Numbered from the stretch's first letter, positions 34,484 to 61,551 are shown. The stretch: 64,000 nucleotides of DNA from Escherichia phage vB_EcoM_ASO1B (MZ726792.1); one strand, 5' to 3'. A program made the numbers and translations. Notes: a model not told the origin generated them from the letters alone.

Positions 34484-34485
34484 AA

Positions 34486-38041: not shown

Positions 38042-38557
38042 TCAACTTAGTTTTGCAAACTCTCCGTGGAGTTTAATAGCAGCTTCACAGTAAGCTTTAT
38101 GGGCTTCTTCTTCTGTTGTGTACGTCCCTATATGTATAGTCTTACCATTATGGTTAATCTGGGCTATCCACTTACCAGACTTGCTTCTACTTGTACCTTT
38201 TAAGTTTTTTGATGTTCTGGGTTGTCTCCTATTAGACATGTTCTGCTCTTTTGTGGCCTCTCTTAGATTGTCCCAAGCGTTATTCAAACCATCCCCATCT
38301 TTGTGGTCAATGTGTTTATCAGGCCACTTACCTGTCATCCAGAACCAAGCAATTCGGTGATTACCTGTCCTGTATCCTAAAATCTGTGTGTGCATATACA
38401 CACCAGACCTTGTGCGCTTAATTGCTCCGGCTTGGCTTCCAATGACCACCCTACTACTATGTGGAGGTCTGCCAATCCATGTTAAGACCCCTGTTTCGGG
38501 GTCATAATCTAACCAAGACTTTAACTGTTCATGTGTGAATCCACAATCTCTCATCAA
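38042..38557 (-). CDS. HNH homing endonuclease with AP2-like C-terminal domain (paralogue 1)
   Basis: Family signature YDPETGVLTW and HIDHKDGDGLNNAWDNLR; C-terminal GKWIAQINHNGKTIHIGTYTTEEEAHKAY; start overlaps the DNA polymerase stop. Confidence 0.8.
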   Translation of the reverse strand: MMRDCGFTHEQLKSWLDYDPETGVLTWIGRPPHSSRVVIGSQAGAIKRTRSGVYMHTQILGYRTGNHRIAWFWMTGKWPDKHIDHKDGDGLNNAWDNLREATKEQNMSNRRQPRTSKNLKGTSRSKSGKWIAQINHNGKTIHIGTYTTEEEAHKAYCEAAIKLHGEFAKLS

Positions 38558-41253
38558 TGTACCTCATACCAGCTTTTACCAACCTTACCAGTACCAGTTA
38601 CCAGTGTTTCACTCTTTAGTCCTAAGTTCTTAGAGGCTTGCCCGTAATACCAATCAGTGACAGCCTTCACCTCTGCCGTCATACTTTCTGGACATTCCCA
38701 ACTCGTCTCATCGTGATAGGAGCACAATAAACGAGCACCTATAGCTGGTTTGCGACCGTTCAACTTCATCAAACCTTCGTCAATCATACGACGGCAAGCA
38801 AGGTTAATTGCCTCGTTCTGAATCTGACTTTCCGAACCCATAAGCAAATAATTCAACAACTTATGTGGAGATTTACACCACAACCAAGCTCCAGCAACCT
38901 TTACAAAACCCCCTTTAGAGATTGCAGCAGTCTTACCAAACACCTCTTCAAGTGCCTTTTTAGTTGCTTTGTAGTCAGCTTCCAAGTCATCTAGCAGCTT
39001 CTTAATTTTAGGCAAACGAATAAAGTAAGTCTGTTTAGTCAGTGCACCTTCCTGAGTAGTTGCAGCTTTAATCGTCTTAGCAAACTTCTCATCACCTGCA
39101 CCGAACAGCAGTGCATAGATACCATTCTTAGCTTTCTTACGGCCTTTGCTAATCTCATGGAGAAGGTTCTCATCCTGAGTAGCTCGACAAGTCAAGATAT
39201 CCTGCTCATCATTCAAGCTAAAGTAAATACTGTTCAATGTATGTGCATCAGTCCCTGAATAGACAACGTACAGGTCATTCTCAGAGTCATAGCGAAGGTA
39301 CTTATCAATCTCTGGGTTCAGGTACTCATCAAAATGTTTGCAGTAATAGCGTCCATCTTCTTGACGAATGAACTCAATTTCTTCTTTACCTTGCGTTACC
39401 GCTTTGGTGAAGTCTTTATCACCCATAAAGTTACAAAGAAGAACTAGCTGGGCTGAGTTCATATCTACAGAGACAACGTTAGTACCTTCCTCACAAATCC
39501 ATACTGCCCTCATTGGTTCTCCATAGACAGCAGCACCAGACGGTACGTTTACAATACCATACTGTGTCATACGTCCAGTTGAAGTACCAAACACCATTGC
39601 ACCAGCACTAAGGCGACCATCAGGACGAATCTGGTTAAGCCAACCTTTTTCATCATCCTTTGAGTTCTCAATAGTTCTGCGTCGGTGCATCAAAGTATAG
39701 TACTTAGCAATCTTCTGTCCAAGCTCACCTTCAATCGTATCATAAGATGATTCAGTAAGTTTTGGTGAAGTACGGATTAAGCAAGGTTCAAGCAAATCTG
39801 TGTATTTCTTCACAGACCAGTTATGCTCGATGTACTGTACACCTTCATGTTCAACATAACTCAAACCACACCGCTCAACCATTTCCTGCCACTTAGGATG
39901 CTTTGTAATCATCTTTTTATTGTCTTTGAAACGACAAACTTTGACAGGGCGACCGTCTGAGTCTTTCTTGTAGTTCCAGTCATCTGGAATCCAACCAACT
40001 GATTTCAAGTAGTCTTTTACAACTGCTACCTGAGTCATACGAGAAACTTCAAACTCAATTGGTGTATATGGTGCATCAATCAATCCTGTGTAGCGACTTG
40101 ACTCAAGTTCAAAGTGGTTAACAACGTGGCTGTTATAGTACTTCACAGTTTTGACTGTTTTTACTGGCTTCCAGTCTTTGCATTTCTTACCAATCTTTGC
40201 ATTCAACTCATTGCAAATTGCACGAGCATCCTTCATTGCTACAAAACCTTCCTTGTACTCTTCACCAGTTACAGAGTTGGTTGGTGTGTAGCAATTTCTC
40301 TTTTCAATGTTAAAAATCTTTGTAGTTGGCTTACCAAACGGTTTGATTTCGTATGTCTGCATCTCACCGTTACGTACCTGTTGACGATACTTTGTCTTAG
40401 GGTACTTGGTAATTCTCTTCAGTCCATCTGCATGACCGAACGCTTCAACATACTCATTCCAAGCTTTTGCAAACTCTTCTCCAGTGACTTTACCTTTGGT
40501 CTTAATAGTTGGAGGAAGATGTGGTTCAACCTCTGAAGCAAGCTCATTAGTCAACTTGTCAAGTTCCTTTACATGGAACTCCATAAGCTCTTTATCAGCT
40601 TTCCAACCATTGATAGCTTGTTGACTCATCCAGAAAGATGTTTCTTTAGCTCGCATGTAGGTTTCATAAGTGTCTATGCCACACTTCTTAAGCTTGAGAT
40701 ACTCATTATCAAGTGCCCGTTTAGTTTTGGCGTTAATACGGATATCTTCTACAACACGAGTGAAGATTTCTGCATTCCACACACCCCAATGTTCAATCTC
40801 TGGTTTACGAACACCAACACGAGCACCCCATGCAGCCAAGCCATGAGCACCTTTATAACCCTTTGGAGTTGGTCTATCCATCCACTGAACACGAGACTGG
40901 ATAAGAGAATCCTGAAAGAAATTACTCCACGGCTTACACTTTGGATTATCAAAGTTCCATAAATCCGGTGCAATGTGATTGAAAACCCACCAGTCATAAC
41001 CTAGACCATTATGAATGCAAAGACGTTTTGCCTTTAACGCAAACTCAATACCTTCACGTAAGCCACCCTTAATGTACTTGGTATACTTGTGACCGAGGAT
41101 AGGCTCATCTGTAAAGACCCATACAGGTGGCTCTTCATCGTCAGATTTATAGTCTGCGAAAGCCATTACGTGCACTTTAGTGAACTCAAGGAGTAAACCA
41201 TCAGTTTCTGTATCACCAACTAAATGTAAGTTTTTAAAATCTACGTTTTCCAT
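38554..41253 (-). CDS. DNA polymerase, family A
   Basis: N-terminal DTETDGL exonuclease motif, motif B-like RKKAKNGIYALLFGAG, motif C YHDE; start set at ATG 41253 after GAGGGAG (track start 41283). Confidence 0.8.
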   Translation of the reverse strand: MENVDFKNLHLVGDTETDGLLLEFTKVHVMAFADYKSDDEEPPVWVFTDEPILGHKYTKYIKGGLREGIEFALKAKRLCIHNGLGYDWWVFNHIAPDLWNFDNPKCKPWSNFFQDSLIQSRVQWMDRPTPKGYKGAHGLAAWGARVGVRKPEIEHWGVWNAEIFTRVVEDIRINAKTKRALDNEYLKLKKCGIDTYETYMRAKETSFWMSQQAINGWKADKELMEFHVKELDKLTNELASEVEPHLPPTIKTKGKVTGEEFAKAWNEYVEAFGHADGLKRITKYPKTKYRQQVRNGEMQTYEIKPFGKPTTKIFNIEKRNCYTPTNSVTGEEYKEGFVAMKDARAICNELNAKIGKKCKDWKPVKTVKTVKYYNSHVVNHFELESSRYTGLIDAPYTPIEFEVSRMTQVAVVKDYLKSVGWIPDDWNYKKDSDGRPVKVCRFKDNKKMITKHPKWQEMVERCGLSYVEHEGVQYIEHNWSVKKYTDLLEPCLIRTSPKLTESSYDTIEGELGQKIAKYYTLMHRRRTIENSKDDEKGWLNQIRPDGRLSAGAMVFGTSTGRMTQYGIVNVPSGAAVYGEPMRAVWICEEGTNVVSVDMNSAQLVLLCNFMGDKDFTKAVTQGKEEIEFIRQEDGRYYCKHFDEYLNPEIDKYLRYDSENDLYVVYSGTDAHTLNSIYFSLNDEQDILTCRATQDENLLHEISKGRKKAKNGIYALLFGAGDEKFAKTIKAATTQEGALTKQTYFIRLPKIKKLLDDLEADYKATKKALEEVFGKTAAISKGGFVKVAGAWLWCKSPHKLLNYLLMGSESQIQNEAINLACRRMIDEGLMKLNGRKPAIGARLLCSYHDETSWECPESMTAEVKAVTDWYYGQASKNLGLKSETLVTGTGKVGKSWYEVH

Positions 41254-41510
41254 TTTTACTCCCTCTAAAATCATTAACCTCATACATTACTGCAAAAAAT
41301 TATAAAAAGCAAGTTGACAATGCACTTGACAAGGTGTTAATCTTTGCGAAGTGGGTTTTTACTTAAAAGGTTACTTAACAGTTTAACTATACAGATACTT
41401 TAAAAGTCTTAAAAGATTATTTAATAGCTTTTAAAAAGCTTTAAAGTATAACGTATAGAATACGTTAAGATAAAAGATTAAAACTTAATAGTTACTTAAA
41501 AGAGGCTTAC

Positions 41511-41933
41511 ATGCAGAAAATGTTTGTTCACCCAGACATAGCTGACTTTGTTAGAGCTTTGCAAAAGTTGGAAGAACTTGACATTGCTGCTCAACGGGAA
41601 TATGCTCACCATCACAGGAGAATGGTTGATATACAACATGAAATAGAGTTGTCTGAAAACTATGAAGATGACTTAAAATGCTCTGTATTTGAGCATATGA
41701 AAGATGTTGCTACAGCGAGACGTAAAGCTAAAGACACAGTTGCTTTACTAGATTCTCTTAAAAAGAGGTTGCAAAGTGGTACAGACCTGTGTAATCTAGC
41801 GTCACTGATTAACGATGTTGAAACTTCTTGGGATAGGCACTATTATCCACGTTCTGAAAAGACACTTGACTTTTCTTCATCCGAAAACTTAAAATGTTCT
41901 AGAAAGAAACTTAACCAACTGAGAGAGAAATAA
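41511..41933 (+). CDS. hypothetical protein (140 aa)
   Basis: First ORF of + strand block after the divergent intergenic region. Confidence 0.5.
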   Translation: MQKMFVHPDIADFVRALQKLEELDIAAQREYAHHHRRMVDIQHEIELSENYEDDLKCSVFEHMKDVATARRKAKDTVALLDSLKKRLQSGTDLCNLASLINDVETSWDRHYYPRSEKTLDFSSSENLKCSRKKLNQLREK

Positions 41934-41934
41934 T

Positions 41935-42735
41935 ATGAATATCGATGTAGAAAAGATGCTTGAAGAGAAAGGTATTGACGAAGCATTTTTAATCAATGCC
42001 GTAGAAAGCATGGCTATGATTCTTCGTGGTAACAACTACACAGAACAGTTTATGCCTGCAAGCTATAACTTGCCTGAAGACAAGTCTGATAACGGTGCTT
42101 TTGCAGAACAGGTTAACATGATGCTTTGCGACAAAACACTTGCTTTAGCATCTATCGTTGTAGGTGTTGATGCCCTTGCAGAGTTCATTTTTTATGAGAT
42201 GCAGAAAAATGATTATATTGCCATGACCACTGAAGAAAAAGACTTGCTACTACTCGCAGGTAACGATGAACTAATTGACCTGTTAATTTCATCAACTAGT
42301 GCTGTTATGGCTGCTCTTGAGAAGCGCATGGAAGAAAAACTTTCACGATATGAAAAACTTGATTGGGGTGTAGAAGAATTAAACCCACGAATCAAAGAAA
42401 TTATCCAGCAAACTAAAGAGTCTTTGGAAGAAGCTGTTGAAAATGACTCTGTAGCTGATATAGAACCTCTTCAGGTGAAAGTTGCACTGATGATTCCAGC
42501 TATCTCTACGATGATGAATATCGTTGCACTAATCCAACTTTCACAGATGATGGGTGTAAGTATTGAGTTCATTGAAGAGATGACTGGTGGCGTTAGTATG
42601 CAAGCAATAAATGATGTTTTGGTGAACATTGGTGCTTCAATCATTGAAGAGAAACTACGCATTAACTTCGGTGATGATTTTGTGAAGCAAATCTCAGCTA
42701 TGGCTGAAAAAGAGTATGCTGAGCAACTGCACTAA
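41935..42735 (+). CDS. hypothetical acidic protein (266 aa)
   Basis: ORF in track, followed by a terminator. Confidence 0.5.
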   Translation: MNIDVEKMLEEKGIDEAFLINAVESMAMILRGNNYTEQFMPASYNLPEDKSDNGAFAEQVNMMLCDKTLALASIVVGVDALAEFIFYEMQKNDYIAMTTEEKDLLLLAGNDELIDLLISSTSAVMAALEKRMEEKLSRYEKLDWGVEELNPRIKEIIQQTKESLEEAVENDSVADIEPLQVKVALMIPAISTMMNIVALIQLSQMMGVSIEFIEEMTGGVSMQAINDVLVNIGASIIEEKLRINFGDDFVKQISAMAEKEYAEQLH

Positions 42736-42753
42736 GTCTTTATAAATCTTACA

Positions 42754-42778
42754 AGCCTCCTTAGTTGGGGGCTTTTTA
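42754..42778 (+). terminator. rho-independent terminator
   Basis: AGCCTCC-TTAGTT-GGGGGCT followed by TTTTT. Confidence 0.55.
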
Positions 42779-42796
42779 GTAATTAATGGAGATAAA

Positions 42797-43540
42797 ATGA
42801 GTAATATTATCGCATTTACTGGAAAGGCACGTTCTGGAAAAGACACCTCATGTTCTATTGTGAAGAACATCTTAGAGGATGAGCACGGCTACAATGTTGC
42901 TGTAATGGCCTTTGCAGACAACCTTAAACTGTCTGCATCAAAGATATTTGACCTGACTTGGAATGACCTGTATGGTGAAACTAAAGAGACTCCACAGGTA
43001 TTTGACTTGTCATATCCTGAACTGATGTTTAAAGTTACGGAAGCTATGGAGTTCACCTTCAGAGATGAACGTTACCATATGGACTTCAAGCTTATGTCAG
43101 AGTTAACCGGACGATTAATCATGGAGCTTAAGAAGGTTGCTAAACCAACTCTATTGACACGTCTGGGGTTTAGCAAAAAGTATAAATTCTCATCAAGACA
43201 AATTCAACAGATTTGGGGCACTGAAGTTGTCCGTAAAGTAATGGGAGACAAGTTCTGGTCTAAAGACCTTGAAAAAAGAATGGTTAGATTCTATGAAAGT
43301 TGCTCACTTAGAAATCAATATGGTTTTGTCTTAATCAGTGATTTAAGATTTGACTCTGAAGCTGAGTGGCTGAGTAGATTTGCACACCAAACTATTGAAG
43401 TAAAAAGAGACAATGTGGATAAGATTTCATCACACGTTTCAGAAAATGGGCTATCCACCAAATATGAGCGTGACATTATTCATAATAATGGTACTCTTAC
43501 AGACCTTGAGAACAAGCTAAGAGCCATCATTAAAGTTTAA
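42797..43540 (+). CDS. putative deoxynucleoside monophosphate kinase (P-loop)
   Basis: N-terminal P-loop FTGKARSGKDT; 247 aa. Confidence 0.55.
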   Translation: MSNIIAFTGKARSGKDTSCSIVKNILEDEHGYNVAVMAFADNLKLSASKIFDLTWNDLYGETKETPQVFDLSYPELMFKVTEAMEFTFRDERYHMDFKLMSELTGRLIMELKKVAKPTLLTRLGFSKKYKFSSRQIQQIWGTEVVRKVMGDKFWSKDLEKRMVRFYESCSLRNQYGFVLISDLRFDSEAEWLSRFAHQTIEVKRDNVDKISSHVSENGLSTKYERDIIHNNGTLTDLENKLRAIIKV

Positions 43541-43548
43541 AAGAGAGA

Positions 43549-46129: not shown

Positions 46130-46136
46130 TTAATGT

Positions 46137-47121: not shown

Positions 47122-48168
47122 ATGGAGAAGTACACATTAACAAAACTTCCCGATTCAGTTACACATGTTTTTATTGACTCTGACAGTATTGCCTACAAAG
47201 GTGCTTGTGTAGTTGAGAAAGCAAAATATAAATATGTCAATAAACTCACAGCAGAAGAATCTGAGCCATTTGATAATGCGAAAGATGCTGCAAGATGGTT
47301 AGCAGACCAGAGAATCCTTGTGGAAGAACTTGGCCTGACATTTGATGAAGATGAATGGGAAAGACAGACTTGGAAAGAAGCTAAGAGTGAAAAAGAAGCT
47401 ATCATGGCTACTCAACAGGTGCTTCAGGAATGGCTTAAGGTTGTTGGGAAAGAAAGAACTTGGGTAGGTTATTTAACAGAGAAAGGTGTACATAAACATA
47501 AAGACATTAAAGGTCTTGAGCACCAATATCAAGGTAACCGTAAAGATGCTGTCACACCAACACACTTAGTTGCTTGTCGTGAGTATCTTCTGTCAAGACC
47601 AGAGTTCAAATTGATTCTTGATGGATTTGAAGCTGACTCTATCGTTATTGCTAAAGCTGAAAAGATGGGAAAAAAGGCTGCCTTGATGAGTATTGATAAA
47701 GACCTTCGCCAAGCTGAAGGGACTTACTGCATTGATATGACCTATGAAAAGTCGCCTTTGATTTTTATTGCTGATAACAACGTTGGTGAAATTTGGGATT
47801 GTCCAATAAAATCGACACCAAAAGCTAAGAAGGCAGTTGGGGTAGGTTTTAAATTTCTTTGTTACCAAGCTGTGGCTGGTGATAATGCTGATAATTATTT
47901 TGGTTTAAAGGGCGTTGGTAAGGCTACTGTAATGAAAGCCCTTGAAGGTAAAACTACTTATAAAGAGTGTCTTGATGCTATCTATGAACTTTATGCTAAG
48001 AAAGAGTCCTATACTTATGTCTCGTGGGATGGTCAAACAATTACCAGAACACCTTTAGAGTTAATGCAGCAACACTTTTTCTTAGCTTATCAGGAAAGAA
48101 ACAAGAAAGACGATTTCACTTTTGATAAGTATGGGTGGACACCAAATGTTAACTCAACAAACTCTTAA
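47122..48168 (+). CDS. 5'-3' exonuclease / flap endonuclease
   Basis: YQGNRKD motif and H3TH-like GDNADNYFGLKGVGKATVMK. Confidence 0.65.
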   Translation: MEKYTLTKLPDSVTHVFIDSDSIAYKGACVVEKAKYKYVNKLTAEESEPFDNAKDAARWLADQRILVEELGLTFDEDEWERQTWKEAKSEKEAIMATQQVLQEWLKVVGKERTWVGYLTEKGVHKHKDIKGLEHQYQGNRKDAVTPTHLVACREYLLSRPEFKLILDGFEADSIVIAKAEKMGKKAALMSIDKDLRQAEGTYCIDMTYEKSPLIFIADNNVGEIWDCPIKSTPKAKKAVGVGFKFLCYQAVAGDNADNYFGLKGVGKATVMKALEGKTTYKECLDAIYELYAKKESYTYVSWDGQTITRTPLELMQQHFFLAYQERNKKDDFTFDKYGWTPNVNSTNS

Positions 48169-48646
48169 AGAATACCTGCACTATGACCCCGAAACAGGGG
48201 TCTTTACTTGGTTAGTTGGTAGAAAAGGTAAGGCCAAAGCTGGCTCAGTAGCAGGTCTTAAACATCATAGTGGTTATATCTATATAAAACTCTTCGGAAA
48301 AAGATATGCAGCACACAGACTGGCATTCTTGTATATGAAAGGATACCTCCCAAAATTTGTTGACCACAAAAATGGTATCAGGCACGACAACTGGTTCGAC
48401 AATTTGAGAGAGTGTAGCAGGTCAGACAACAACTGCAATGCAGTCAAAAGAAAAGATAATAAGTCTGGTGTGAAGGGTGTATATTACCACAAGCAAAGAG
48501 GTAGATGGGCTGCACAAGTCAAGCATAATAAAGTATGCTACCATCTAGGTTTATTTGACTCTATCACTGAGGCTGAATCAGTTGTCAAAAAGAAAAGAGA
48601 AGAACTCCATAGAGAGTTTACAAATCACGGAGAAGCTCATGAATGA
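48146..48646 (+). CDS. HNH homing endonuclease with AP2-like C-terminal domain (paralogue 2)
   Basis: YDPETGVFTW, VDHKNGIRHDNWFDNLR, C-terminal GVKGVYYHKQRGRWAAQVKHNKV; overlaps the exonuclease 3' end. Confidence 0.8.
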   Translation: MLTQQTLKEYLHYDPETGVFTWLVGRKGKAKAGSVAGLKHHSGYIYIKLFGKRYAAHRLAFLYMKGYLPKFVDHKNGIRHDNWFDNLRECSRSDNNCNAVKRKDNKSGVKGVYYHKQRGRWAAQVKHNKVCYHLGLFDSITEAESVVKKKREELHREFTNHGEAHE

Positions 48647-49143
48647 TTAAAGTTAAAGGTTTTGGGAGTTGCCCCACTTATGGTCACTGGATTTCACTAT
48701 GTGGTGAAGTTGACCCAGCAAAGCACTTTGGTTTTGTCTACCTAGTGTACTGCAAAAAGACTGGACAGTACTATTTGGGTAAGAAACAGCTTAACAGTGT
48801 GACAAAAAGAAAAGTTGCTGGGAAGACTCGGAAGAAGGTAGTCACTAAGGAGAGTGATTGGATGACTTACGAAACCTCTTCTGAGTATATTAAAAAAGAT
48901 ATTGAAAGCTTTGGAAAAGAATCTTTTGATTTTTACATTATTCAAACCTACTACACAAAAGGTGGTCTAGTTTATGGTGAAGCAAACCTTCAACATAAAT
49001 TCGATGTAATGACAAAAAGGATTGACTCTAAGCTCAGACTCTTCTACAATGCCAATATTGCAGCAATTAAGTTTATTACTAAAGAAACTTATGAAGATGC
49101 TGAAAAAAGAATCCATAAGGTAATGAAAGCAAACTGTGCTTGA
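48643..49143 (+). CDS. putative GIY-YIG-like nuclease
   Basis: N-terminal GFVYLVYCKKTGQYYLGKK resembles the GIY-(10-11)-YIG motif; directly downstream of an HNH gene. Confidence 0.4.
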   Translation: MIKVKGFGSCPTYGHWISLCGEVDPAKHFGFVYLVYCKKTGQYYLGKKQLNSVTKRKVAGKTRKKVVTKESDWMTYETSSEYIKKDIESFGKESFDFYIIQTYYTKGGLVYGEANLQHKFDVMTKRIDSKLRLFYNANIAAIKFITKETYEDAEKRIHKVMKANCA

Positions 49144-54878: not shown

Positions 54879-54885
54879 AATGAAA

Positions 54886-54907: not shown

Positions 54908-54926
54908 AGCATGTAAAGGGGCAATA

Positions 54927-57071
54927 ATGAACAAAGTACAGATTATTAAAAAGAATGGCTCACTTGAAGAACCTGATATCAAAAAAGTTTTAGCAGCAGT
55001 CACAAAGTCAGCTAACAGAGTTGGTTATAAAGAGCTTCCACCAGATGTTACTCAAGCTCTTGAGTCAGCATTTATGAGGATTCTGGTAAAGTCCACTAAG
55101 CAGAATAATTTGCTAATTTCGGTAAATGATATTCACAGTATTGTTGAGGGTGCTTTGGCAGAAGTCAATCACGAGATTTATGAGTCTTACTCAACATATA
55201 GAAATTACCGTAAAGAGGTTGCTCAAAATTGGGATGAACTCTACCAGAAGACTAAAGATACACTCTTCTTAGGTGACCGAGAAAACGCTAATTTTGACAG
55301 CAGTTTAATTTCTACAAAAGGTTCAATTATTCGTGGTTATCTGACTAAAGAAATCTTTAAACAGTACCATTTAACACCAGAGGAACTTGAAGCCATTGAA
55401 AAAGGGTTTATCTACATCCATGATTTAAGAGACCTAATTTTTGGTGGTATCAACTGTTGCCTGTTTGACATTGGTAAAGTCCTGAAAGGTGGCTTTGAAA
55501 TGTCTGGCATCGAATATTGTGAACCGAAGTCTGTACTGTCAGCCTTACAGGTTATTGGTGATGTAGTTCTTTCAGCAACTGCACAGCAATTTGGTGGCTT
55601 TACTTTAGCAGAGATTGATAAGGTACTTGTACCGTATGCTAAGAAGTCTCTACACTATCATGCTGAGAAAGCAGCATCTTATGGTATTCCTAAAGAACAT
55701 TACCACAATTATGTCATGGAGCAGCTACAGATTGAACTGACTCAGGGTTTCCAGTCACTTGAAATGAAACTAAACACTGTACCTTGTAGTCGTGGGGATT
55801 TTGCATTCACAACTTTGACATTCGGGTTACTTGACTCAGATATGTCCAATGAAGATAACCGACTGCAATACATGATTGCAAGTACTCTCCTAGATGTTCG
55901 TATGAATGGACAAGGTAAGAGCAAGAAGCCTGTTGTATTCCCTAAACTGGTTTATATTTATGACCAGAAGAGACACGATGAGAATATCTGTCAAGGCCAC
56001 CTGTACAGTAAAGCTATTGAGTGTTGCTCTAAAGCAATGTATCCAGACTTCTTAAGTGTATCTGGTCATGGTGCTGTAGCAGAGGCTTTTGAGCGTTCTG
56101 GTAAGGTTATTTCACCAATGGGTTGCAGAGCTTTCTTGTCTCCATATCTTAATGAGGATGGGGAAGAGTTCTACGTTGGTCGTGCTAACATTGGTGCTGT
56201 ATCTTTGAACTTACCAATGATTTACCAGTATTCTAAAGAGAATGGATTAGACTTCTGGACAGAACTTGATAAATATCTCGAAATGATTCGTAGCTTCCAT
56301 AAGAAACGCTACGAAATGATTGCTAATATGCCAGCAAGTTCTAACCCTCTTGCATTCACACAAGGTGGTCTGTACAAAGGAACTAAGAAACCTACTGACA
56401 AGGTTGGTTGGGATATTGTGAAGTCCTTCACAGCTTCTTTTGGTGTTACTGCGCTTGATGAGTTGTCTGTTCTTGCTGAAGGTAAACGACTTCATGAAGT
56501 TGGAAGCTATAGTTTTGCATATGATGTTCTGGCATACATCAACATGAAAACCGAAGAGTTTAAAAATGAAGATGGCTTCTTATATGCCGTCTATGGTACT
56601 CCAGCAGAATCACTATGTGGGACTCAGCTAAAACAGTTCAGAGATATGTTTGGGGTTATCAAAGGTGTTTCCGATAAGGAATACTTTACAAACAGTTTCC
56701 ATATGAATGTTGCAGCAGACATCTCGCCATTTGAGAAGCAGGACTTAGAAGAGCCATTCTTCCATATCTGTAGAGGCGGTAGAATCCAGTATGTAAGAGT
56801 AGCTAACCCAGAAAACTTAACAGCACTTAAAAGTTGTATTACAAGAGGGATGTTGAAAGGTTTCTATCAGGGGCTTAACTTTGACTTAGCAATCTGTGAA
56901 CATTGTGGTAACAGACCAAAGGCTGATGTTGAAGAATGTGAGGTTTGCCATTCACATGATATCTCTGTGATTAACAGGGTGTGTGGGTATCTTGGATGGA
57001 CTAAGATTAAAGGTGAATCCCGAATGAACGATGCAAAAATCGCTGAGATTCGTGATAGAGTCTCTATGTAA
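54927..57071 (+). CDS. nrdD: anaerobic ribonucleoside-triphosphate reductase
   Basis: C-terminal Zn ribbon CEHCG...CEVCH and glycyl-radical motif RVCGYLG; 714 aa. Confidence 0.9.
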   Translation: MNKVQIIKKNGSLEEPDIKKVLAAVTKSANRVGYKELPPDVTQALESAFMRILVKSTKQNNLLISVNDIHSIVEGALAEVNHEIYESYSTYRNYRKEVAQNWDELYQKTKDTLFLGDRENANFDSSLISTKGSIIRGYLTKEIFKQYHLTPEELEAIEKGFIYIHDLRDLIFGGINCCLFDIGKVLKGGFEMSGIEYCEPKSVLSALQVIGDVVLSATAQQFGGFTLAEIDKVLVPYAKKSLHYHAEKAASYGIPKEHYHNYVMEQLQIELTQGFQSLEMKLNTVPCSRGDFAFTTLTFGLLDSDMSNEDNRLQYMIASTLLDVRMNGQGKSKKPVVFPKLVYIYDQKRHDENICQGHLYSKAIECCSKAMYPDFLSVSGHGAVAEAFERSGKVISPMGCRAFLSPYLNEDGEEFYVGRANIGAVSLNLPMIYQYSKENGLDFWTELDKYLEMIRSFHKKRYEMIANMPASSNPLAFTQGGLYKGTKKPTDKVGWDIVKSFTASFGVTALDELSVLAEGKRLHEVGSYSFAYDVLAYINMKTEEFKNEDGFLYAVYGTPAESLCGTQLKQFRDMFGVIKGVSDKEYFTNSFHMNVAADISPFEKQDLEEPFFHICRGGRIQYVRVANPENLTALKSCITRGMLKGFYQGLNFDLAICEHCGNRPKADVEECEVCHSHDISVINRVCGYLGWTKIKGESRMNDAKIAEIRDRVSM

Positions 57072-57079
57072 AACTTGAC

Positions 57080-57125
57080 AAGGTGATGTGGGTCTTGATA
57101 GGCTTACATCACCTTTTTTTTTTTT
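57080..57125 (+). terminator. rho-independent terminator after nrdD
   Basis: AGGTGATGT-loop-ACATCACCT followed by a 13-nt T-run. Confidence 0.65.
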
Positions 57126-57232
57126 TATTGGATGTTAGATATGGCAGAGAACATCATTGGCCTATTCATAGGTTCTGTCTTACTAGGGTTCTTTTTAGGA
57201 CTCTCTTATTGTGAATTAAGAGGCAAGTTAAA

Positions 57233-57433
57233 ATGTTTAAAATATCAAAATCGTTGATATACATTCTCCACATTCTAATCTTCTTCTTTGGGGTTAGTGT
57301 TATGGTATGGGGTTTTTCAGACCCACAGTGGAGTTTATCATATCATGGTCAGATGGATTTATGGTCATGCTTCAAACCATTTTTAGGGTTAGCCATAGCA
57401 TTCAGTGTATTGCCAACTAAGGTGAAATTATGA
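57233..57433 (+). CDS. small membrane protein (66 aa)
   Basis: ORF in track, hydrophobic. Confidence 0.4.
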   Translation: MFKISKSLIYILHILIFFFGVSVMVWGFSDPQWSLSYHGQMDLWSCFKPFLGLAIAFSVLPTKVKL

Positions 57434-57825
57434 TTAAGTTGAACAAAAAACAGTTAGAGTGGATTAAAGATTATGCCTCAGAGTGCGGCTCTTGCGAAAA
57501 GAATCACGTAAGATATTCAACATTCCATGCGACCTTCACATTGTACATCAGCGACAACGTTCTAAGTGATTCCGTAGAAGATGGTGTAGCGTTACCTAAT
57601 GAATTACTTGACAAATTAGCTGTAGTTACTGGAACGTGGAGTGAAGAAGATGGTCACGAACTATCTGACAATGTTGTCTTCTACAGTCTTGAAAATATTA
57701 TGAATCCAGAGTACATTATGTTAATGACTTGTGCACAAGACTGTGTGCCATTACAAAACTTCATTAAAGAGCATTGTGAAGAGTTTATTACTAAACAGGT
57801 TCCTTGTCAGGTGGTGTTTGAATGA
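57430..57825 (+). CDS. hypothetical protein (131 aa)
   Basis: ORF in track. Confidence 0.45.
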   Translation: MIKLNKKQLEWIKDYASECGSCEKNHVRYSTFHATFTLYISDNVLSDSVEDGVALPNELLDKLAVVTGTWSEEDGHELSDNVVFYSLENIMNPEYIMLMTCAQDCVPLQNFIKEHCEEFITKQVPCQVVFE

Positions 57826-58121
57826 GTAAAACAATTCGAAGAAAAGGTTTAAAGAACGTTCACGGACTCTATGAGTGGAGGAATGAGGTACGTAACAGAG
57901 AAAATGCTTCAGATGTCTACTTCCATTCTGATATGATGTCCAGAAAAGGTGGCTCTTATGACTTTACAAGTCAGCCTTGTAGAGAGATTAAGCAGGCTAC
58001 TAAACGTCTTACAAGAACACAAATCAGTCAGCTTTCTAAGACATCCTTCTTAGATGAAGATTTTGACATTGACAGCAAGTCTCCAAAGAAAGCTGCTCAG
58101 AGCACTTATATGTATTGGTGA
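57822..58121 (+). CDS. hypothetical protein (99 aa)
   Basis: ORF in track. Confidence 0.45.
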   Translation: MSKTIRRKGLKNVHGLYEWRNEVRNRENASDVYFHSDMMSRKGGSYDFTSQPCREIKQATKRLTRTQISQLSKTSFLDEDFDIDSKSPKKAAQSTYMYW

Positions 58122-58130
58122 GGTAACTAG

Positions 58131-58616
58131 ATGAATTACATGGAGATTAGACCATTTGACACAGCTAATGGTGAAGGGGTTCGTGTAAGCCTCTTCGTAG
58201 CTGGTTGTAAACATCACTGTGAAGGCTGCTTTAACAGGGAGTCTTGGAAGTTTAATGCTGGTAAAGAGTTCACTTATGCAAACCTCTATGGCATCATTAA
58301 ATTAATGGATGATAATGCCGTCAGTGGGTTGTCAATACTTGGTGGAGAACCTCTGGATGATAGAAATATTCAAGAGGTTACCAACATATGCAAACGTATT
58401 AAAACCGTTTACCCAGAAAAATCTATCTGGCTATGGACAGGTTTTCAGTTACACGAAAAAATTCACCTAGATGTGATGAAATATGTTGACGTGGTGATTG
58501 ATGGTAAGTATGATTCATCTAAACCAACAGTTAAACCATATCGTGGTTCTGATAACCAAAACCTCTGGAGAAAAGAGTATGGATGGCAAGGCGATTGTCA
58601 ATGGAGAGCCGAGTAA
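58131..58616 (+). CDS. nrdG: anaerobic ribonucleotide reductase activating protein (radical SAM)
   Basis: CKHHCEGC radical-SAM cysteine motif; 161 aa. Confidence 0.8.
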   Translation: MNYMEIRPFDTANGEGVRVSLFVAGCKHHCEGCFNRESWKFNAGKEFTYANLYGIIKLMDDNAVSGLSILGGEPLDDRNIQEVTNICKRIKTVYPEKSIWLWTGFQLHEKIHLDVMKYVDVVIDGKYDSSKPTVKPYRGSDNQNLWRKEYGWQGDCQWRAE

Positions 58617-58740
58617 GTCTCGTCGTAAAGTAGGTTATCGGTAAAGGGCACTTTACAATGTTCTACAGAACAAACTTAACCGTTTGTGTCACTGAAAAAG
58701 AACTTAAAACATTTTGTGAAAAGATTGAGAGAGATATGAA

Positions 58741-58998
58741 ATGGGACTCTGGAATAGTTTTAAATCAAAAGTAAAAGCAGCACTAGCTTCATTAGGTATG
58801 CTCACTGGTGTTGATGTGACTCACCTTATGCAGAACTTCAATATGGATGAGAAGCTGGCTAATGAGATTATGAAAAGTATCTATGTAGGCCGTGGTAAAG
58901 GTGGTAAGAAACAAGCCCACCGTCCGTCTGGTGCAGCAGCTATTAAACGAGCAGCTAAGAAAGCTCGTAACCGTAAACGTAATAAGAAGGCTAAATAA
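58741..58998 (+). CDS. hypothetical protein with highly basic C-terminus (85 aa)
   Basis: ORF in track; Lys/Arg-rich C-terminal tail. Confidence 0.45.
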   Translation: MGLWNSFKSKVKAALASLGMLTGVDVTHLMQNFNMDEKLANEIMKSIYVGRGKGGKKQAHRPSGAAAIKRAAKKARNRKRNKKAK

Positions 58999-59000
58999 TC

Positions 59001-59321
59001 ATGAGCAAAGTTTATAACACTCGCAAATTACAGATTTTCGTACTGTGCCAGTTTATGGCTAAAGAATATAACTTCTACTATTGCGGCACAGGTTTTATTA
59101 GCGACGATGATGGTTCATACCTACCATTTAAAGAAGCTGTGAAGCTCTTTAATGAAGAGAAAAGCTCTAAGAAAGATATTGAAAAGGTTAAGCTAACCTA
59201 CAGCAAGAAAGATAAGAAGATTATCTGCCTAGATAACTTTGTGAAAGTTACTGGAGAAGCAAAAGAGTTTATGGATGAGAGTGAGATTTCATTCACAAGC
59301 ATCTTGAAAGTAGCTCAGTAA
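59001..59321 (+). CDS. hypothetical protein (106 aa)
   Basis: ORF in track, followed by a terminator. Confidence 0.45.
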   Translation: MSKVYNTRKLQIFVLCQFMAKEYNFYYCGTGFISDDDGSYLPFKEAVKLFNEEKSSKKDIEKVKLTYSKKDKKIICLDNFVKVTGEAKEFMDESEISFTSILKVAQ

Positions 59322-59334
59322 ACAGATACTATAA

Positions 59335-59362
59335 GGGAACTGTAAAGGTTCCCTTTTATTTT
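59335..59362 (+). terminator. rho-independent terminator
   Basis: GGGAAC-TGTAAAG-GTTCCC followed by TTTTATTTT. Confidence 0.6.
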
Positions 59363-59371
59363 GGAGATGAT

Positions 59372-59887
59372 ATGTATCTGTCAAACCTAAAACGTTCTGC
59401 TGCAATGTCAGTTCTAAGACTCAGCTTTGATGAGCGTCAAGAGTTTATAGACTCCCACAAATATGACCCTTCAAATTCTAATCACATGGTTCTTTGGAAT
59501 CGTGATAACTTCCGTGAAAGAGCACTTGTCCGTTATTACCCACACTACACAATAGATAACCTGTATGAATGGTGTGTTGTGAAGAACACCATTGCAACAC
59601 TGAACAATCTTTGCAGGTATACGGGTAAGCAAACATTTACATTAGGTCATCACAAACCTGTTACAAAAGGTGGTGAACATCACTGTGCAAACTGGTTTAT
59701 CCAAACTAAAACTGATAACCAGAAGCAAGGAGATAGCCTCCTAAGTATCCCCAAGATGACCTATGAAGAGCAAGAGAAATATATCAAAAATAATATGCCA
59801 GATGTGCTTGACAACAACTATACAGATTTGGCAATATCTCTCCTGTTGAAGTTCGAGACAGTTTATAGGGCAACTTATAATGGCTAA
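59372..59887 (+). CDS. putative HNH-family nuclease (171 aa)
   Basis: LGHHKPVTKGGEHHCANWFIQTKTDNQKQG resembles an HNH core. Confidence 0.4.
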   Translation: MYLSNLKRSAAMSVLRLSFDERQEFIDSHKYDPSNSNHMVLWNRDNFRERALVRYYPHYTIDNLYEWCVVKNTIATLNNLCRYTGKQTFTLGHHKPVTKGGEHHCANWFIQTKTDNQKQGDSLLSIPKMTYEEQEKYIKNNMPDVLDNNYTDLAISLLLKFETVYRATYNG

Positions 59888-60158
59888 AGAAAAGTGGGAG
59901 ATTTTACCATTAGTCAGTGAAGGAGGTAATGGTTGTGAAATGTACATGATACGTGGTCATGTTCCAGAGCCAATTGCACTTGAGATGGTAAACAACTTTA
60001 CAGATGGTTCTTACAAAGACTTAGGCGAACCAACTGTCAAGCAACAATGGGTAAAGCCTGTACCAGACAGCACAGGTAACTGTAGTGTACTTTACCACGT
60101 TGTAGACCCTGTAAAATGCAAATCTGCAATGGCAGTAACAAACGTAACTTTTGATTGA
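59880..60158 (+). CDS. hypothetical protein (92 aa)
   Basis: ORF in track. Confidence 0.45.
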   Translation: MAKEKWEILPLVSEGGNGCEMYMIRGHVPEPIALEMVNNFTDGSYKDLGEPTVKQQWVKPVPDSTGNCSVLYHVVDPVKCKSAMAVTNVTFD

Positions 60159-60169
60159 GAGAGAAAACT

Positions 60170-61051
60170 ATGAAAACATCTATCCGTGTCACAATTCATT
60201 CACCGACTAAAGGAACTCATGAAGAAGAGTTTAACATCATCCAATTCCCTTCTGGTGAGATTGGTGGCCACTTTTCACAAGAGCTTGTTGATTTTACTGC
60301 TTATGCAGCATCATCTATTAACAATGTGGTTATGATTGTAAAGGGTTATGACAAAGACACACTGTTTGCTGTGGCACTGGCTAAAGAAGCAATTGACGAT
60401 TTAGTTCCTCATGATTATGCCCTGAAGACTGTCATTTTTTACTACTTGCCAAATGCACGATACGACCGTCACATGTTTAAAGGCGACGCAGCAGCTTTAA
60501 AGGTTTTTGCTAAACAGGTAAATGCAATGGGATTTGGTGCAGTCTGTGCAGTTGACCCTCACAGTTACGTTCCAGATAACCTGTTTAACTGCTTCCAGAG
60601 TATTCCTCAAAAGGAGATTGCAGTCCACTATGCAAATGACCCACTGGTTGATTACTTAGTAGCCCCAGATGCAGGTGCTGCTAAGAAGGTTGCAGAGACC
60701 GCTAAAGAGGTGGGTAAACCATATATCACAATGTCTAAAGTACGCAACCTTAAGACTGGTGAAATTACTGGTATGCGAATCCTTGATGATGTTGATTTGA
60801 CAGATAAAACCGTCATGATTCTGGATGATATCTGTGATGGTGGTCGAACCTTCATAGAAGCAGCGAAACATCTTCGTGAAGCAGGTGCAAAACGTGTGGA
60901 ACTTTATGTAACACATGGTATCTTCTCTAAAGATGTTGAAAACCTTCTTGACAATGGTATCGACCATATTTACACTACAAACTCTTTAGGTGAAGCTAAA
61001 GACCGTGGCTTAACACATTATAGTCAAGTTACTGTAGCAAATTTGGATTAG
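60170..61051 (+). CDS. prs: ribose-phosphate pyrophosphokinase (PRPP synthetase)
   Basis: PRPP-binding motif VMILDDICDGGRT; start set at ATG 60170. Confidence 0.8.
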   Translation: MKTSIRVTIHSPTKGTHEEEFNIIQFPSGEIGGHFSQELVDFTAYAASSINNVVMIVKGYDKDTLFAVALAKEAIDDLVPHDYALKTVIFYYLPNARYDRHMFKGDAAALKVFAKQVNAMGFGAVCAVDPHSYVPDNLFNCFQSIPQKEIAVHYANDPLVDYLVAPDAGAAKKVAETAKEVGKPYITMSKVRNLKTGEITGMRILDDVDLTDKTVMILDDICDGGRTFIEAAKHLREAGAKRVELYVTHGIFSKDVENLLDNGIDHIYTTNSLGEAKDRGLTHYSQVTVANLD

Positions 61052-61059
61052 GTATTAAA

Positions 61060-61551
61060 ATGGATAAGGGTTACTTCGAAAAATACCTAATATACGAACC
61101 AGAGACAGGTTTACTAATTTGGAAAGTAACCCTTTGCAATACCGCTATTGCTGGTAACGTTGCTGGCACAAGGTCTAAGAAGGGTTATATCCAAGTTCAG
61201 ATAAATAAGAAAAGGTACTATGCGCATAATATCGCATGGATTCTATCTGGAGGTGATATACCAAGTGGATATGAGATAGACCACATAGACCTTGACAAAA
61301 CAAATAATAGGCTGGAAAACTTAAGACTGAGTACAAAGTCACAAAACCAAAGGAATAGAGGTCTACAAAAGAACAATAAAACTGGCGTGAAGGGCGTAAG
61401 TGTGTGTCCACAGACAGGTCTTTATAAGGCAAGGGTGATGCTTTATCATAAAGAATACTTTTGCGGAAGATTTAAAACGCTAGAAGAAGCTAAAGAAGCT
61501 GTAATTAGAAAACGAATAGAACTTCATGGTAAGTTTGCAAGACATAACTAA
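61060..61551 (+). CDS. HNH homing endonuclease with AP2-like C-terminal domain (paralogue 3)
   Basis: YEPETGLLIW, IDHIDLDKTNNRLENLR, C-terminal GVKGVSVCPQTGLYKARV; inserted between prs and the NAMPT gene. Confidence 0.8.
   Translation: MDKGYFEKYLIYEPETGLLIWKVTLCNTAIAGNVAGTRSKKGYIQVQINKKRYYAHNIAWILSGGDIPSGYEIDHIDLDKTNNRLENLRLSTKSQNQRNRGLQKNNKTGVKGVSVCPQTGLYKARVMLYHKEYFCGRFKTLEEAKEAVIRKRIELHGKFARHN

What the first reader, a model, noticed from the sequence alone, without database searches (positions are those of the whole stretch)
38042..61551. Three paralogous HNH-AP2 homing endonuclease genes inserted beside core replication and metabolism genes, plus GIY-YIG-like and HNH-like extras
The genes at 38042-38557 (-), 48146-48646 (+) and 61060-61551 (+) share YDPETG(V/L)(L/F)(T/I)W, an HNH core and an AP2-like C-terminal domain. 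They sit immediately downstream of and overlapping the DNA polymerase, overlapping the 3' end of the 5'-3' exonuclease, and between prs and nadV. A GIY-YIG-like ORF follows the second copy, and a further HNH-like ORF is at 59372-59887. This is the pattern of free-standing homing endonucleases targeting conserved genes.
Basis: partly seen in the sequence, partly recalled or inferred. Interest (0 to 1): 0.5.

Follow-up and report, generated by a model that had tools for sequence, protein, structure and literature searches.

The report
Known homing endonuclease genes, FelixO1-like phage
The window comes from a FelixO1-like coliphage, and the three flagged genes are real selfish HNH-AP2 homing endonuclease genes that come and go between conserved genes, but they are already annotated and published, so the finding is correct and ordinary.

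Summary
The ORFs at 38042-38554(-), 48131/48146-48646(+) and 61060-61551(+) are intact HNH_3 + AP2 proteins, 36-38% identical to each other, with the D-H...N...N-L-R...N catalytic motif. An AlphaFold model of the third matches I-HmuI best, then plant AP2 domains.

The window is a Felixounavirus. Positions 38031-64000 are identical to Escherichia phage vB_EcoM_ASO1A (MZ726791) except at 57114-57115. That record already annotates these genes, and the type phage FelixO1 carries HNH genes at the same three sites (six HNH copies reported in 2010).

Across about 250 related genomes each site is polymorphic. AYO145A is empty at all three, junctions are precise, neighbouring genes stay intact, flanks differ near the junctions, and Si3 carries decayed copies. 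No group I intron RNA was found. This supports free-standing homing endonuclease genes, though no cleavage was tested.

The two "extras" are not mobile in this genus. The SegE-type GIY-YIG ORF and ORF 59372-59887 (HNH-like motif only) are core genes.

Side observations:
- Several divergent HNH alleles occupy sites 1 and 2.
- An 18-nt GC palindrome is shared by sites 1 and 2.
- A recombination breakpoint lies 16 nt from the HEG1 junction.

Novelty: already known. Interest is low.

The parts
38042..38554 (-). HEG1: free-standing HNH_3+AP2 homing endonuclease gene (170 aa from the ATG at 38554; alternative TTG at 38557). Its stop codon TGA lies inside the flanking TTGACA.
   Evidence: Pfam and PHROG hits; sequence read; annotated as ASO1A_093 'HNH homing endonuclease'; present/absent among relatives.
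38047..38549 (.). Site-1 insertion segment: 503 nt that correspond to a single base in the empty allele of AYO145A. It lies between the pol stop region and GTTGAC, part of the stretch annotated as a promoter in AYO145A.
   Evidence: promoter annotation in AYO145A.
38031..38046 (.). Recombination breakpoint relative to ASO1A. The two genomes are identical from 38031 to 64000 except at 57114-57115, and about 8% diverged over 36959-38030.
38554..41283 (-). DNA polymerase gene, the neighbour of site 1. The last 15 nt carry 5 substitutions in the occupied allele versus the empty one (..SWYEVH* TGA against ..SWLEVH* TAA).
38486..38503 (-). Perfect palindrome GACCCC-GAAACA-GGGGTC encoding DPETGV in HEG1.
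   Evidence: conservation peak among divergent alleles.
47122..48168 (+). 5'-3' exonuclease gene, the neighbour of site 2. Its C-terminus reads ..WTPNVNSTNS* when the site is occupied and ..WEPCMNED* when it is empty.
48131..48646 (+). HEG2: HNH_3+AP2 homing endonuclease gene. The start is the ATG at 48131 or the ATG at 48146, which has a GGTGGA Shine-Dalgarno-like sequence 6 nt upstream. Inserted segment 48133-48639.
48185..48202 (+). The same 18-nt palindrome in HEG2.
48643..49143 (+). SegE-type GIY-YIG domain protein (166 aa). It is conserved in relatives with an empty site 2, so it is a core gene in the genus and is often mis-annotated as 'NAD synthetase'.
   Evidence: Pfam PF19835 4.8e-27; present in AYO145A, LMP25 and EC106; coverage pattern.
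59372..59887 (+). Conserved 171-aa ORF with an invariant HNH-like motif GH(H/Y)..P...GG.HH..NW.IQ...DNQ. It is a core gene, not a polymorphic homing endonuclease gene.
60155..61051 (+). prs (ribose-phosphate pyrophosphokinase), the upstream neighbour of site 3. The deposited annotation corresponds to a start at 60168.
61060..61551 (+). HEG3: HNH_3+AP2 homing endonuclease gene (163 aa). The inserted segment, about 61051-61555, replaces the 31-46 nt prs-nadV spacer and its terminator hairpin.
   Evidence: AlphaFold model pLDDT 91; best PDB match I-HmuI, then AP2 domains.
61569..63350 (+). nadV (nicotinamide phosphoribosyltransferase), the downstream neighbour of site 3. Its first ~100 nt are 80-82% identical in three genomes that lack HEG3 and 95-99% in genomes that carry it. 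REP8, which also lacks HEG3, is 94%.

Best explanation
The three genes are free-standing (intron-less, intein-less) homing endonuclease genes of the widespread phage HNH_3+AP2 family. Each protein has an I-HmuI-like beta-beta-alpha-metal nuclease followed by an AP2 DNA-binding domain. They reside in a FelixO1-like myovirus.

Inferred mechanism: when this phage co-infects a cell with a relative that lacks the gene, the enzyme binds and nicks or cuts the relative's DNA near the pol stop, the exonuclease/GIY-YIG junction or the prs-nadV spacer. Recombinational repair from the genome that carries the gene then copies the gene and nearby markers into the broken genome. The carrier allele would be protected by the substitutions seen next to each junction.

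Expression probably rides on the host genes. HEG1 is translationally coupled to pol. HEG2 starts inside the exonuclease gene and overlaps the GIY-YIG start. HEG3 replaces the prs terminator, so it would be co-transcribed with prs and nadV.

Shown here: domain content, fold, catalytic motif, presence/absence polymorphism, precise junctions, flank divergence and decayed copies.

Inferred only: cleavage, target sites, current activity and the expression arrangement.
For: - Domains and motif. D74, H75, N87, R89, N96 and N99 are invariant in 33 homologues.
- Fold: the HEG3 model has pLDDT 91. Its best PDB match is I-HmuI 1u3e (E 2e-4, full length), followed by plant AP2 domains at 1.2-1.6 A rmsd.
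- Polymorphism: 39 of 254 records carry this allele at site 1; 78 of 257 carry an HNH at site 2; 61 of 251 at site 3. AYO145A is empty at all three sites. A rough classification of 30 evenly sampled records, corrected by the UAB_Phi87 check, puts site 1 at about 40% empty and 55-60% occupied by some HNH allele.
- Precise junctions with intact neighbours.
- Flank divergence next to the sites in relatives that lack the gene or carry another allele, consistent with co-conversion. Five mostly synonymous changes in the last 15 nt of pol.
- Decay stage of the homing cycle: the Si3 HEG2 copy has a 1-nt deletion, and both Si3 copies are annotated as truncated.
- A recombination breakpoint against ASO1A lies 16 nt from the HEG1 junction.
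- No Rfam family, introns included, reached threshold.
- The family occurs in 2272 phage records, often in several copies.
- Literature: six HNH genes in FelixO1 (PMC3185647); the HNH+AP2 class and nuclease genes at boundaries of genetic exchange (PMC10448857).
Against: - There is no biochemical or genetic evidence of cleavage or homing for any Felixounavirus HNH gene in the papers searched.
- Presence/absence alone cannot separate gain from precise loss.
- Some empty alleles carry flanks like those of occupied alleles (EC106 at site 2, REP8 at site 3, UAB_Phi87 at site 1).
- The flank analysis rests on 6-9 genomes.
- Only one of about 11 identity-block boundaries against ASO1A lies at a homing endonuclease gene. 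By my estimate that happens by chance about 4% of the time.
- The AP2 scores of HEG2 and HEG3 are below Pfam's cut-off.
Confidence: 0.85

Rival explanations
1. The genes are relics. They once homed, but the copies in this genome are no longer active, and the polymorphism among relatives reflects old invasions plus ongoing deletion.
For: - Decayed copies exist in Si3.
- Some empty alleles carry flanks like those of occupied alleles, as expected after precise loss.
- No activity data were found.
Against: - All three window copies are full length with every invariant catalytic residue.
- HEG1 is 100% identical at the protein level in phage SBA-1781, and 20 records carry a copy at 99% identity or more, which argues against neutral decay.
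- The breakpoint beside HEG1 separates a tract with only two differences in 26 kb from diverged DNA, which points to a recent exchange.
Confidence: 0.12
2. The genes are domesticated accessory genes that serve the phage, for example as nickases in replication or recombination, as regulators through the AP2 domain, or as weapons against co-infecting phages. They would be kept by selection on the phage rather than by their own spread.
For: - They sit in the replication and nucleotide-metabolism module and are translationally coupled to pol and the exonuclease.
- I-HmuI-type enzymes nick rather than cut both strands (my own knowledge of PDB entry 1u3e, the top hit).
- The neighbouring GIY-YIG and HNH-like ORFs are fixed in the genus.
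Against: - Viable isolates lack all three genes (AYO145A), so they are dispensable.
- Several divergent alleles and frameshifted copies occupy the same sites.
- Exclusion of a competitor's markers is itself a consequence of homing, not a separate mechanism.
Confidence: 0.07
3. The genes are endonucleases encoded within group I introns or inteins that interrupt pol, the exonuclease, prs or nadV.
For: Relatives such as Si3 have interrupted pol and nrdD genes.
Against: - pol, exonuclease, prs and nadV are contiguous and full length in this window, and they are also full length in relatives with empty sites.
- The insertions lie after stop codons or in a spacer.
- No Rfam family reached threshold in 36000-64000.
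- The FelixO1 genome paper already excluded inteins.
Confidence: 0.01

Closest known systems
FelixO1 ORF95, ORF106 and ORF128 (NP_944955, NP_944978, NP_945017) and ASO1A_093, _104 and _124 in Escherichia phage vB_EcoM_ASO1A (MZ726791)
   Same: Same three genomic sites (after pol, overlapping the exonuclease 3' end, between prs and nadV) and same HNH+AP2 architecture. The ASO1A copies are identical to the window. FelixO1 carries the same alleles at sites 2 and 3.
   Different: FelixO1 carries a divergent allele at site 1; blastn finds no match across window 38111-38557. To the left of HEG1 the window differs from ASO1A.
I-HmuI (Bacillus phage SPO1), PDB 1u3e
   Same: It is the best structural match to the HEG3 model over the full length, with N-terminal beta-hairpins followed by an HNH (beta-beta-alpha-metal) motif. 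The HNH variant with Asn in place of the last His is my own knowledge.
   Different: I-HmuI is encoded within a group I intron in a DNA polymerase gene and has a helix-turn-helix C-terminal domain (my own knowledge). The genes here are free-standing and carry an AP2 domain. Sequence identity is 21%, and a sequence search of the PDB finds nothing.
HNH+AP2 homing endonuclease class of phages, cyanobacteria and protists (cited as ref. 45 in PMC10448857; 'IPA-HNH' genes of ICP1 phages)
   Same: N-terminal HNH plus C-terminal AP2. The genes are free-standing, cluster beside replisome and ribonucleotide-reductase genes, occupy boundaries of genetic exchange and recombine with each other.
   Different: The ICP1 genes are too divergent to be detected by the Pfam HNH_3 model. 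The genes here match HNH_3 strongly.
Free-standing seg and mob homing endonuclease genes of phage T4 (GIY-YIG and HNH)
   Same: They are inserted between conserved genes, are present or absent among relatives, and spread by cutting the allele that lacks them, with co-conversion of flanking markers. This rests on my own knowledge and the review cited in PMC8300805.
   Different: T4 HNH mob proteins lack AP2 domains (my own knowledge). The SegE-type GIY-YIG gene in this window appears fixed rather than polymorphic.

Membership tests
HNH_3 / I-HmuI-like HNH endonucleases (PF13392) | Profile match above the curated cut-off | tested here: met
   53.9, 48.1 and 70.5 bits against a cut-off of 24.8.
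HNH_3 / I-HmuI-like HNH endonucleases (PF13392) | Catalytic motif D-H ... N ... N-L-R ... N retained | tested here: met
   The motif is present in all three window proteins. D74, H75, N87, R89, N96 and N99 are invariant across 33 homologues.
HNH_3 / I-HmuI-like HNH endonucleases (PF13392) | Beta-beta-alpha-metal fold resembling a solved member | tested here: met
   HEG3 model pLDDT 91; top PDB hit I-HmuI 1u3e, E 2.2e-4, probability 1.00. Only HEG3 was modelled.
HNH_3 / I-HmuI-like HNH endonucleases (PF13392) | Metal-dependent nicking or cleavage of DNA | not testable with these tools
   Needs biochemistry.
AP2 DNA-binding domain (PF00847) | Profile match above the curated cut-off | tested here: inconclusive
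   HEG1 scores 38.1 bits against a cut-off of 33.3 (met). HEG2 scores 31.6 and HEG3 17.8 (below).
AP2 DNA-binding domain (PF00847) | Three-stranded sheet packed on a helix, superposable on solved AP2 domains | tested here: met
   The C-terminal part of HEG3 aligns with TEM1, WRINKLED1, AtERF1 and AtERF96 AP2 domains at 1.2-2.9 A over 53-66 residues.
Free-standing homing endonuclease gene (functional class) | Present or absent at the same locus among close relatives | tested here: met
   Searches give counts. Empty alleles were read directly in AYO145A, LMP25, heid, H12, EC106 and REP8.
Free-standing homing endonuclease gene (functional class) | Precise insertion that leaves the flanking conserved genes intact and is not within an intron or intein | tested here: met
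   Junction alignments; Rfam negative.
Free-standing homing endonuclease gene (functional class) | Sequence differences or co-conversion tracts next to the insertion site | tested here: met
   Identity drops to 71-90% beside the sites in relatives that lack the gene or carry another allele, against 91-100% in carriers of the same allele at sites 2 and 3. There are exceptions, and the sample is small.
Free-standing homing endonuclease gene (functional class) | Site-specific cleavage of the allele that lacks the gene, and super-Mendelian inheritance in mixed infection | not testable with these tools
   No experimental report was found for Felixounavirus.
SegE-type GIY-YIG homing endonuclease (for 48643-49143) | GIY-YIG nuclease domain | tested here: met
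   PF19835 at 4.8e-27, 95.1 bits against a cut-off of 25.
SegE-type GIY-YIG homing endonuclease (for 48643-49143) | Presence/absence polymorphism among relatives (mobility) | tested here: not met
   The gene is present in every relative examined, including those with an empty HNH site. In one search, listed records without HEG2 cover 77% of the query, which includes this gene.
SegE-type GIY-YIG homing endonuclease (for 48643-49143) | Separate DNA-binding domain | tested here: inconclusive
   No second domain is detected, and only about 27 residues follow the nuclease domain.
HNH endonuclease (for ORF 59372-59887) | Match to a curated HNH profile or to the HNH fold | tested here: inconclusive
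HNH endonuclease (for ORF 59372-59887) | Presence/absence polymorphism (if it is claimed to be a homing endonuclease gene) | tested here: not met
   221 of 244 records cover at least 80% of the region, including Mooglevirus-type phages at 75% identity.
Group I intron-encoded endonuclease | Flanking group I intron RNA interrupting a host gene | tested here: not met
   No Rfam family reached threshold in 36000-64000, and the host genes are contiguous.

The most novel reading that the evidence does not exclude
The perfect 18-nt GC palindrome GACCCC-GAAACA-GGGGTC lies 30-50 nt into HEG1 and HEG2. It is kept at the DNA level in at least six otherwise very divergent HNH alleles at two different Felixounavirus sites.

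It may be a lineage-specific cis element rather than a by-product of the YDPETGV protein motif. It could be an RNA hairpin that attenuates endonuclease expression, a G/C-rich operator bound by the protein's own AP2 domain, or a short homology block that lets allelic endonuclease cassettes swap their middles.

The FelixO1 site-1 allele changes the loop, and therefore the amino acids, but keeps the 6-bp stem. Among 69 unrelated viral HNH ORFs that encode YDPETGV, none forms the full stem.
Probability: 0.12. Interest if true: 0.45.

Novelty: already known. Interest (0 to 1): 0.15.

Why it matters
Homing endonuclease genes drive gene conversion and mosaicism in large lytic phages. They confound phylogenies and can bias the outcome of mixed infections, for example in phage cocktails that use FelixO1-like phages.

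This window is a clean textbook case: three sites, empty and occupied alleles, several alleles per site, decayed copies, and a recombination breakpoint at a gene edge. It adds no new kind of element, because the genes are already annotated and the phenomenon is published.

Its practical value is as a ready set of natural occupied and empty allele pairs for testing the still uncharacterised cleavage specificity of HNH+AP2 enzymes.

Tried and rejected
- **Intron or intein context.** An Rfam scan of 36000-64000 was negative. The same scan of the Si3 locus, whose pol and nrdD are interrupted, was also negative, so those interruptions remain uncharacterised.
- **More family members in the window.** phmmer against all six-frame ORFs found only the three.
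- **ORF 59001-59321.** Some records annotate it as 'putative HNH homing endonuclease'. It matches DUF7390 and phrog_4462, with no HNH signal, so I rejected that label.
- **Sequence search of the PDB.** HEG3 and the GIY-YIG protein gave no significant hits.
- **NCBIfam.** Nothing useful.
- **The palindrome as a family-wide nucleic-acid feature.** A degenerate search for YDPETGV-coding DNA in viral contigs found 69 HNH ORFs, none with all six stem pairs. The 111-nt RNA folds around it are not more stable than shuffles (z -0.45 and -1.02). The terminator-like hit at 48185 sits within chance levels (9 found, 7 expected).
- **The ~215-nt insertion near site 1 in UAB_Phi87-type genomes as a decayed endonuclease remnant.** It is an unrelated 72-aa ORF inserted about 60 nt further left, and the endonuclease site itself is empty.
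- **The search for related loci with the 33-sequence alignment.** It failed because no stretch was conserved enough.


Full report
**What the window is.** A megablast of 37500-62000 against deposited phage genomes finds 270 records of FelixO1-like myoviruses, mostly Felixounavirus (Ounavirinae). The best is Escherichia phage vB_EcoM_ASO1A (MZ726791) at 99.9% identity. That record already annotates ASO1A_093 'HNH homing endonuclease', ASO1A_104 'putative HNH endonuclease', ASO1A_105 'GIY-YIG homing endonuclease' and ASO1A_124 'putative HNH endonuclease' at the positions in the finding. The ORF at 59372-59887 is annotated as hypothetical. The type phage FelixO1 has HNH genes at the same three sites (ORF95, ORF106, ORF128) and the GIY-YIG ORF, there labelled 'NAD synthetase'. 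The FelixO1 genome paper reports six HNH homing endonuclease copies and excludes inteins (PMC3185647).

**Checking the observation.**
- The ORFs exist as described.
- Pfam gives HNH_3 plus AP2 for all three. The AP2 score is above the curated cut-off only for HEG1. PHROGs places all three in phrog_99.
- They are 36-38% identical to each other and share D-H...N...N-L-R...N. Across 33 homologues D74, H75, N87, R89, N96 and N99 (HEG3 numbering) are invariant.
- phmmer against every six-frame ORF of the window finds only these three family members.
- An AlphaFold2 model of HEG3 built on that alignment has mean pLDDT 91. Its best PDB match is the HNH homing endonuclease I-HmuI (1u3e, E 2e-4, full length). 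Next come plant AP2 domains (TEM1, WRINKLED1, AtERF1) at 1.2-2.9 A rmsd.
- Reading the sequence:
  - The HEG1 ATG shares a base with the pol stop (TGATG), and GAGG lies 7 nt upstream.
  - The HEG1 stop TGA lies inside the flanking TTGACA.
  - HEG2 begins inside the last 23-38 nt of the exonuclease gene and ends in ATGA with the GIY-YIG start.
  - HEG3 sits 8 nt after the prs stop.
- Minor corrections: HEG3 has YEPETG rather than YDPETG, and the deposited starts are 38554 and 48131.

**Are they mobile?** I queried each gene with 500-600 nt of flank on each side, so that an empty site covers only about 65-77% of the query.

| Site | Records covering at least 80% of the query |
|---|---|
| 1 (after pol) | 39 of 254 (this allele) |
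| 2 (exonuclease 3' end) | 78 of 257 (includes two other alleles, which cover 81-83%) |
| 3 (prs / nadV) | 61 of 251 |

At sites 2 and 3 most of the remaining listed records match as two pieces whose span equals the query minus the gene.

A junction-spanning query from an empty allele returned 30 evenly sampled records. My rough classification of them, corrected by the UAB_Phi87 check, puts site 1 at about 40% empty and 55-60% occupied by some HNH allele.

AYO145A is empty at all three sites. Whole-region comparison gives the following sizes:
- Site 1: 503 nt (38047-38549) in the window against 1 nt in AYO145A.
- Site 2: 507 nt (48133-48639) against 12 nt.
- Site 3: 505-519 nt (about 61051-61555) against 31-46 nt.

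**Junction anatomy.**
- Site 1. The insertion lies exactly between the pol stop region and GTTGAC. AYO145A annotates a promoter for the next operon across this stretch. The last 15 nt of pol carry five changes, CTT GAG GTT CAC TAA becoming TAT GAG GTA CAT TGA, which alters only Leu to Tyr.
- Site 2. About 500 nt replace 'TTGT' between the exonuclease codons for W(E/T)P and ATGAATGA. The exonuclease tail changes from CMNED* to NVNSTNS*, and the GIY-YIG start is recreated.
- Site 3. HEG3 replaces the spacer that holds the prs terminator hairpin (GGGGCTT..AAGCCCC). The GAGAGAGA stretch just upstream of the nadV start, presumably its ribosome-binding site, is kept.
- In every genome examined the neighbouring genes are full length apart from Si3, whose pol is interrupted elsewhere. 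Rfam finds no family in 36000-64000. The genes are therefore free-standing.

**Signatures of the homing cycle.**
- Flank identity to the window, in 100-nt bins:
  - Site 2: 71-88% over about 600 nt upstream and 79-90% over 100-200 nt downstream in two of the three relatives lacking HEG2 and in the one carrying another allele; 89-100% upstream in carriers of the same allele.
  - Site 3: the first 100 nt of nadV are 80-82% in three relatives lacking HEG3 and 95-99% in carriers.
- Exceptions exist. EC106, REP8 and UAB_Phi87 are empty sites with flanks like those of occupied alleles. They could be resistant alleles that were never invaded, or alleles that lost the gene.
- Si3 carries decayed copies. 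Its HEG2 has a 1-nt deletion inside GACCCC, and both its HEG1 and HEG2 are annotated as truncated.
- Sites 1 and 2 host several very different alleles:
  - Site 1 has the window/Si3/heid, FelixO1, LMP25 and dune types.
  - Site 2 has the window, heid/wV8 and EC6/HY02 types.
  - At site 1 the middles of the alleles are essentially unalignable (30-50% identity), but the last ~65 nt of the ORF are 100% identical. This looks like cassette exchange by recombination within the gene ends.

**An unexpected extra: a breakpoint beside HEG1.**
- Against ASO1A the window is identical from 38031 to 64000 apart from 57114-57115. It becomes about 8% diverged over the 1.1 kb to the left of 38030.
- The HEG1 insertion boundary is 38046/38047, so a recombination breakpoint lies within 16 nt of the gene's outer junction.
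- The rest of the window is also a mosaic against ASO1A, with identical blocks at 681-11097, 12091-14079, 16494-22501, 27242-28384 and 33013-33780. None of those boundaries is at an endonuclease gene.
- With about 11 boundaries and six gene junctions, I estimate that one coincidence within 20 nt has a chance of about 0.04. This is suggestive, not decisive.
- It fits the published picture of nuclease genes at boundaries of genetic exchange (PMC10448857).

**The two 'extras'.**
- 48643-49143 is a confident SegE-type GIY-YIG domain (4.8e-27). It is present in every relative examined, including those with an empty HNH site, and in the coverage pattern. No DNA-binding domain was detected. In this genus it behaves as a fixed gene, not a mobile one.
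- 59372-59887 is likewise core: 221 of 244 records cover the region, including Mooglevirus-type phages.
  - It has an invariant motif GH(H/Y)..P...GG.HH..NW.IQ...DNQ.
  - It has weak hits to an HNH PHROG (2e-6) and the IscB model (0.022).
  - It has no Pfam HNH hit, and fold search was uninformative.
  - 'HNH-like' is reasonable at motif level only.
- ORF 59001-59321, called 'putative HNH' in some records, matches DUF7390 and shows no HNH signal.

**Mechanism.**
- The best-supported reading is classical intron-less homing. In mixed infection the enzyme recognises, through its AP2 and N-terminal hairpin regions, the allele that lacks the gene. It nicks or cuts near the insertion point, and recombinational repair copies the gene and flanking markers.
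- I-HmuI-type enzymes are nickases (my own knowledge), so a nick converted into a break by replication is as likely as a direct double-strand cut.
- The junction-proximal substitutions are candidates for the differences that protect the carrier allele.
- None of these steps was or could be tested here, and no experimental work on Felixounavirus endonucleases was found.

**Side observation followed part-way.**
- HEG1 and HEG2 share the perfect palindrome GACCCC-GAAACA-GGGGTC, which encodes DPETGV (0.03 matches expected by chance).
- It is the only sharp conservation peak among the four divergent site-1 alleles.
- It is present in at least six alleles in viral contigs.
- The FelixO1 site-1 allele changes the loop (DPDKGV) but keeps the stem.
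- Among 69 unrelated viral HNH ORFs that encode YDPETGV, none has all six stem pairs. The palindrome is therefore a Felixounavirus peculiarity, not a property of the family.
- RNA folding is not exceptional.
- Gene conversion between alleles is the simplest explanation. A cis-acting role remains possible.

**Verdict.** The observation and interpretation are right, with two qualifications: the GIY-YIG and HNH-like ORFs are fixed genes, and the HNH-like call is weak. The element is already annotated and published, and the family and its behaviour are well known. Interest is low. The only mildly new points are the allelic cassettes, the conserved palindrome and the breakpoint at the HEG1 edge.

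Noticed in passing
38486-38503 (-) and 48185-48202 (+): The perfect 18-nt palindrome GACCCC-GAAACA-GGGGTC (DPETGV) is shared by HEG1 and HEG2. It is conserved at the DNA level in at least six otherwise divergent HNH alleles of Felixounavirus. It is absent as a full stem from 69 unrelated viral HNH ORFs that encode the same peptide.
   Followed up: partly
38031-38046, with the blocks 681-11097, 12091-14079, 16494-22501, 27242-28384, 33013-33780 and 38031-64000: The window is a mosaic relative to ASO1A, with blocks of identity separated by patches that are 2-12% diverged. One boundary lies 16 nt outside the HEG1 junction, and the identical tract runs 26 kb from there to the end of the window.
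   Followed up: partly
33879-35402: A 1.5-kb insertion relative to ASO1A lies next to the DNA ligase gene. It carries two minus-strand ORFs (34043-34483, 146 aa; 34486-35088, 200 aa) that match only PHROGs of unknown function (phrog_5926, phrog_4652).
   Followed up: partly
about 57837-58112 (ORF 57822-58121): A 245-276 nt segment carrying a 99-aa ORF (phrog_1774, weak DUF5499 hit) is present in the window, LMP25 and heid. It is absent from FelixO1, dune and AYO145A, so it is another small variable cassette in the nrdD-nrdG region.
   Followed up: no
L009 (Salmonella phage Si3) 3609-4414, 21437-22177 and 23128-23746; the corresponding window positions are about 39108, 56124 and 57074-58112: Si3 has an 806-nt interruption of pol, a 741-nt interruption of nrdD containing an annotated HNH gene, and an extra homing endonuclease gene between nrdD and nrdG. 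The window has the uninterrupted alleles. Rfam finds no group I intron in Si3, so the nature of these interruptions is unresolved.
   Followed up: partly
L155 (UAB_Phi87) 359-577; corresponds to about window 37990: About a fifth of the relatives sampled carry a ~215-nt insertion encoding a 72-aa ORF, about 60 nt left of the HEG1 site. In UAB_Phi87 it is unrelated to the endonuclease, and the endonuclease site itself is empty.
   Followed up: yes
48643-49143: The SegE-type GIY-YIG gene is annotated as 'NAD synthetase' in FelixO1 and many derived records, and in phrog_447. Pfam supports only a GIY-YIG nuclease domain, so this looks like a propagated mis-annotation.
   Followed up: partly
59001-59321: This ORF is annotated as 'putative HNH homing endonuclease' in phages dune, heid and others. 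It matches DUF7390 and phrog_4462, with no HNH signal.
   Followed up: yes
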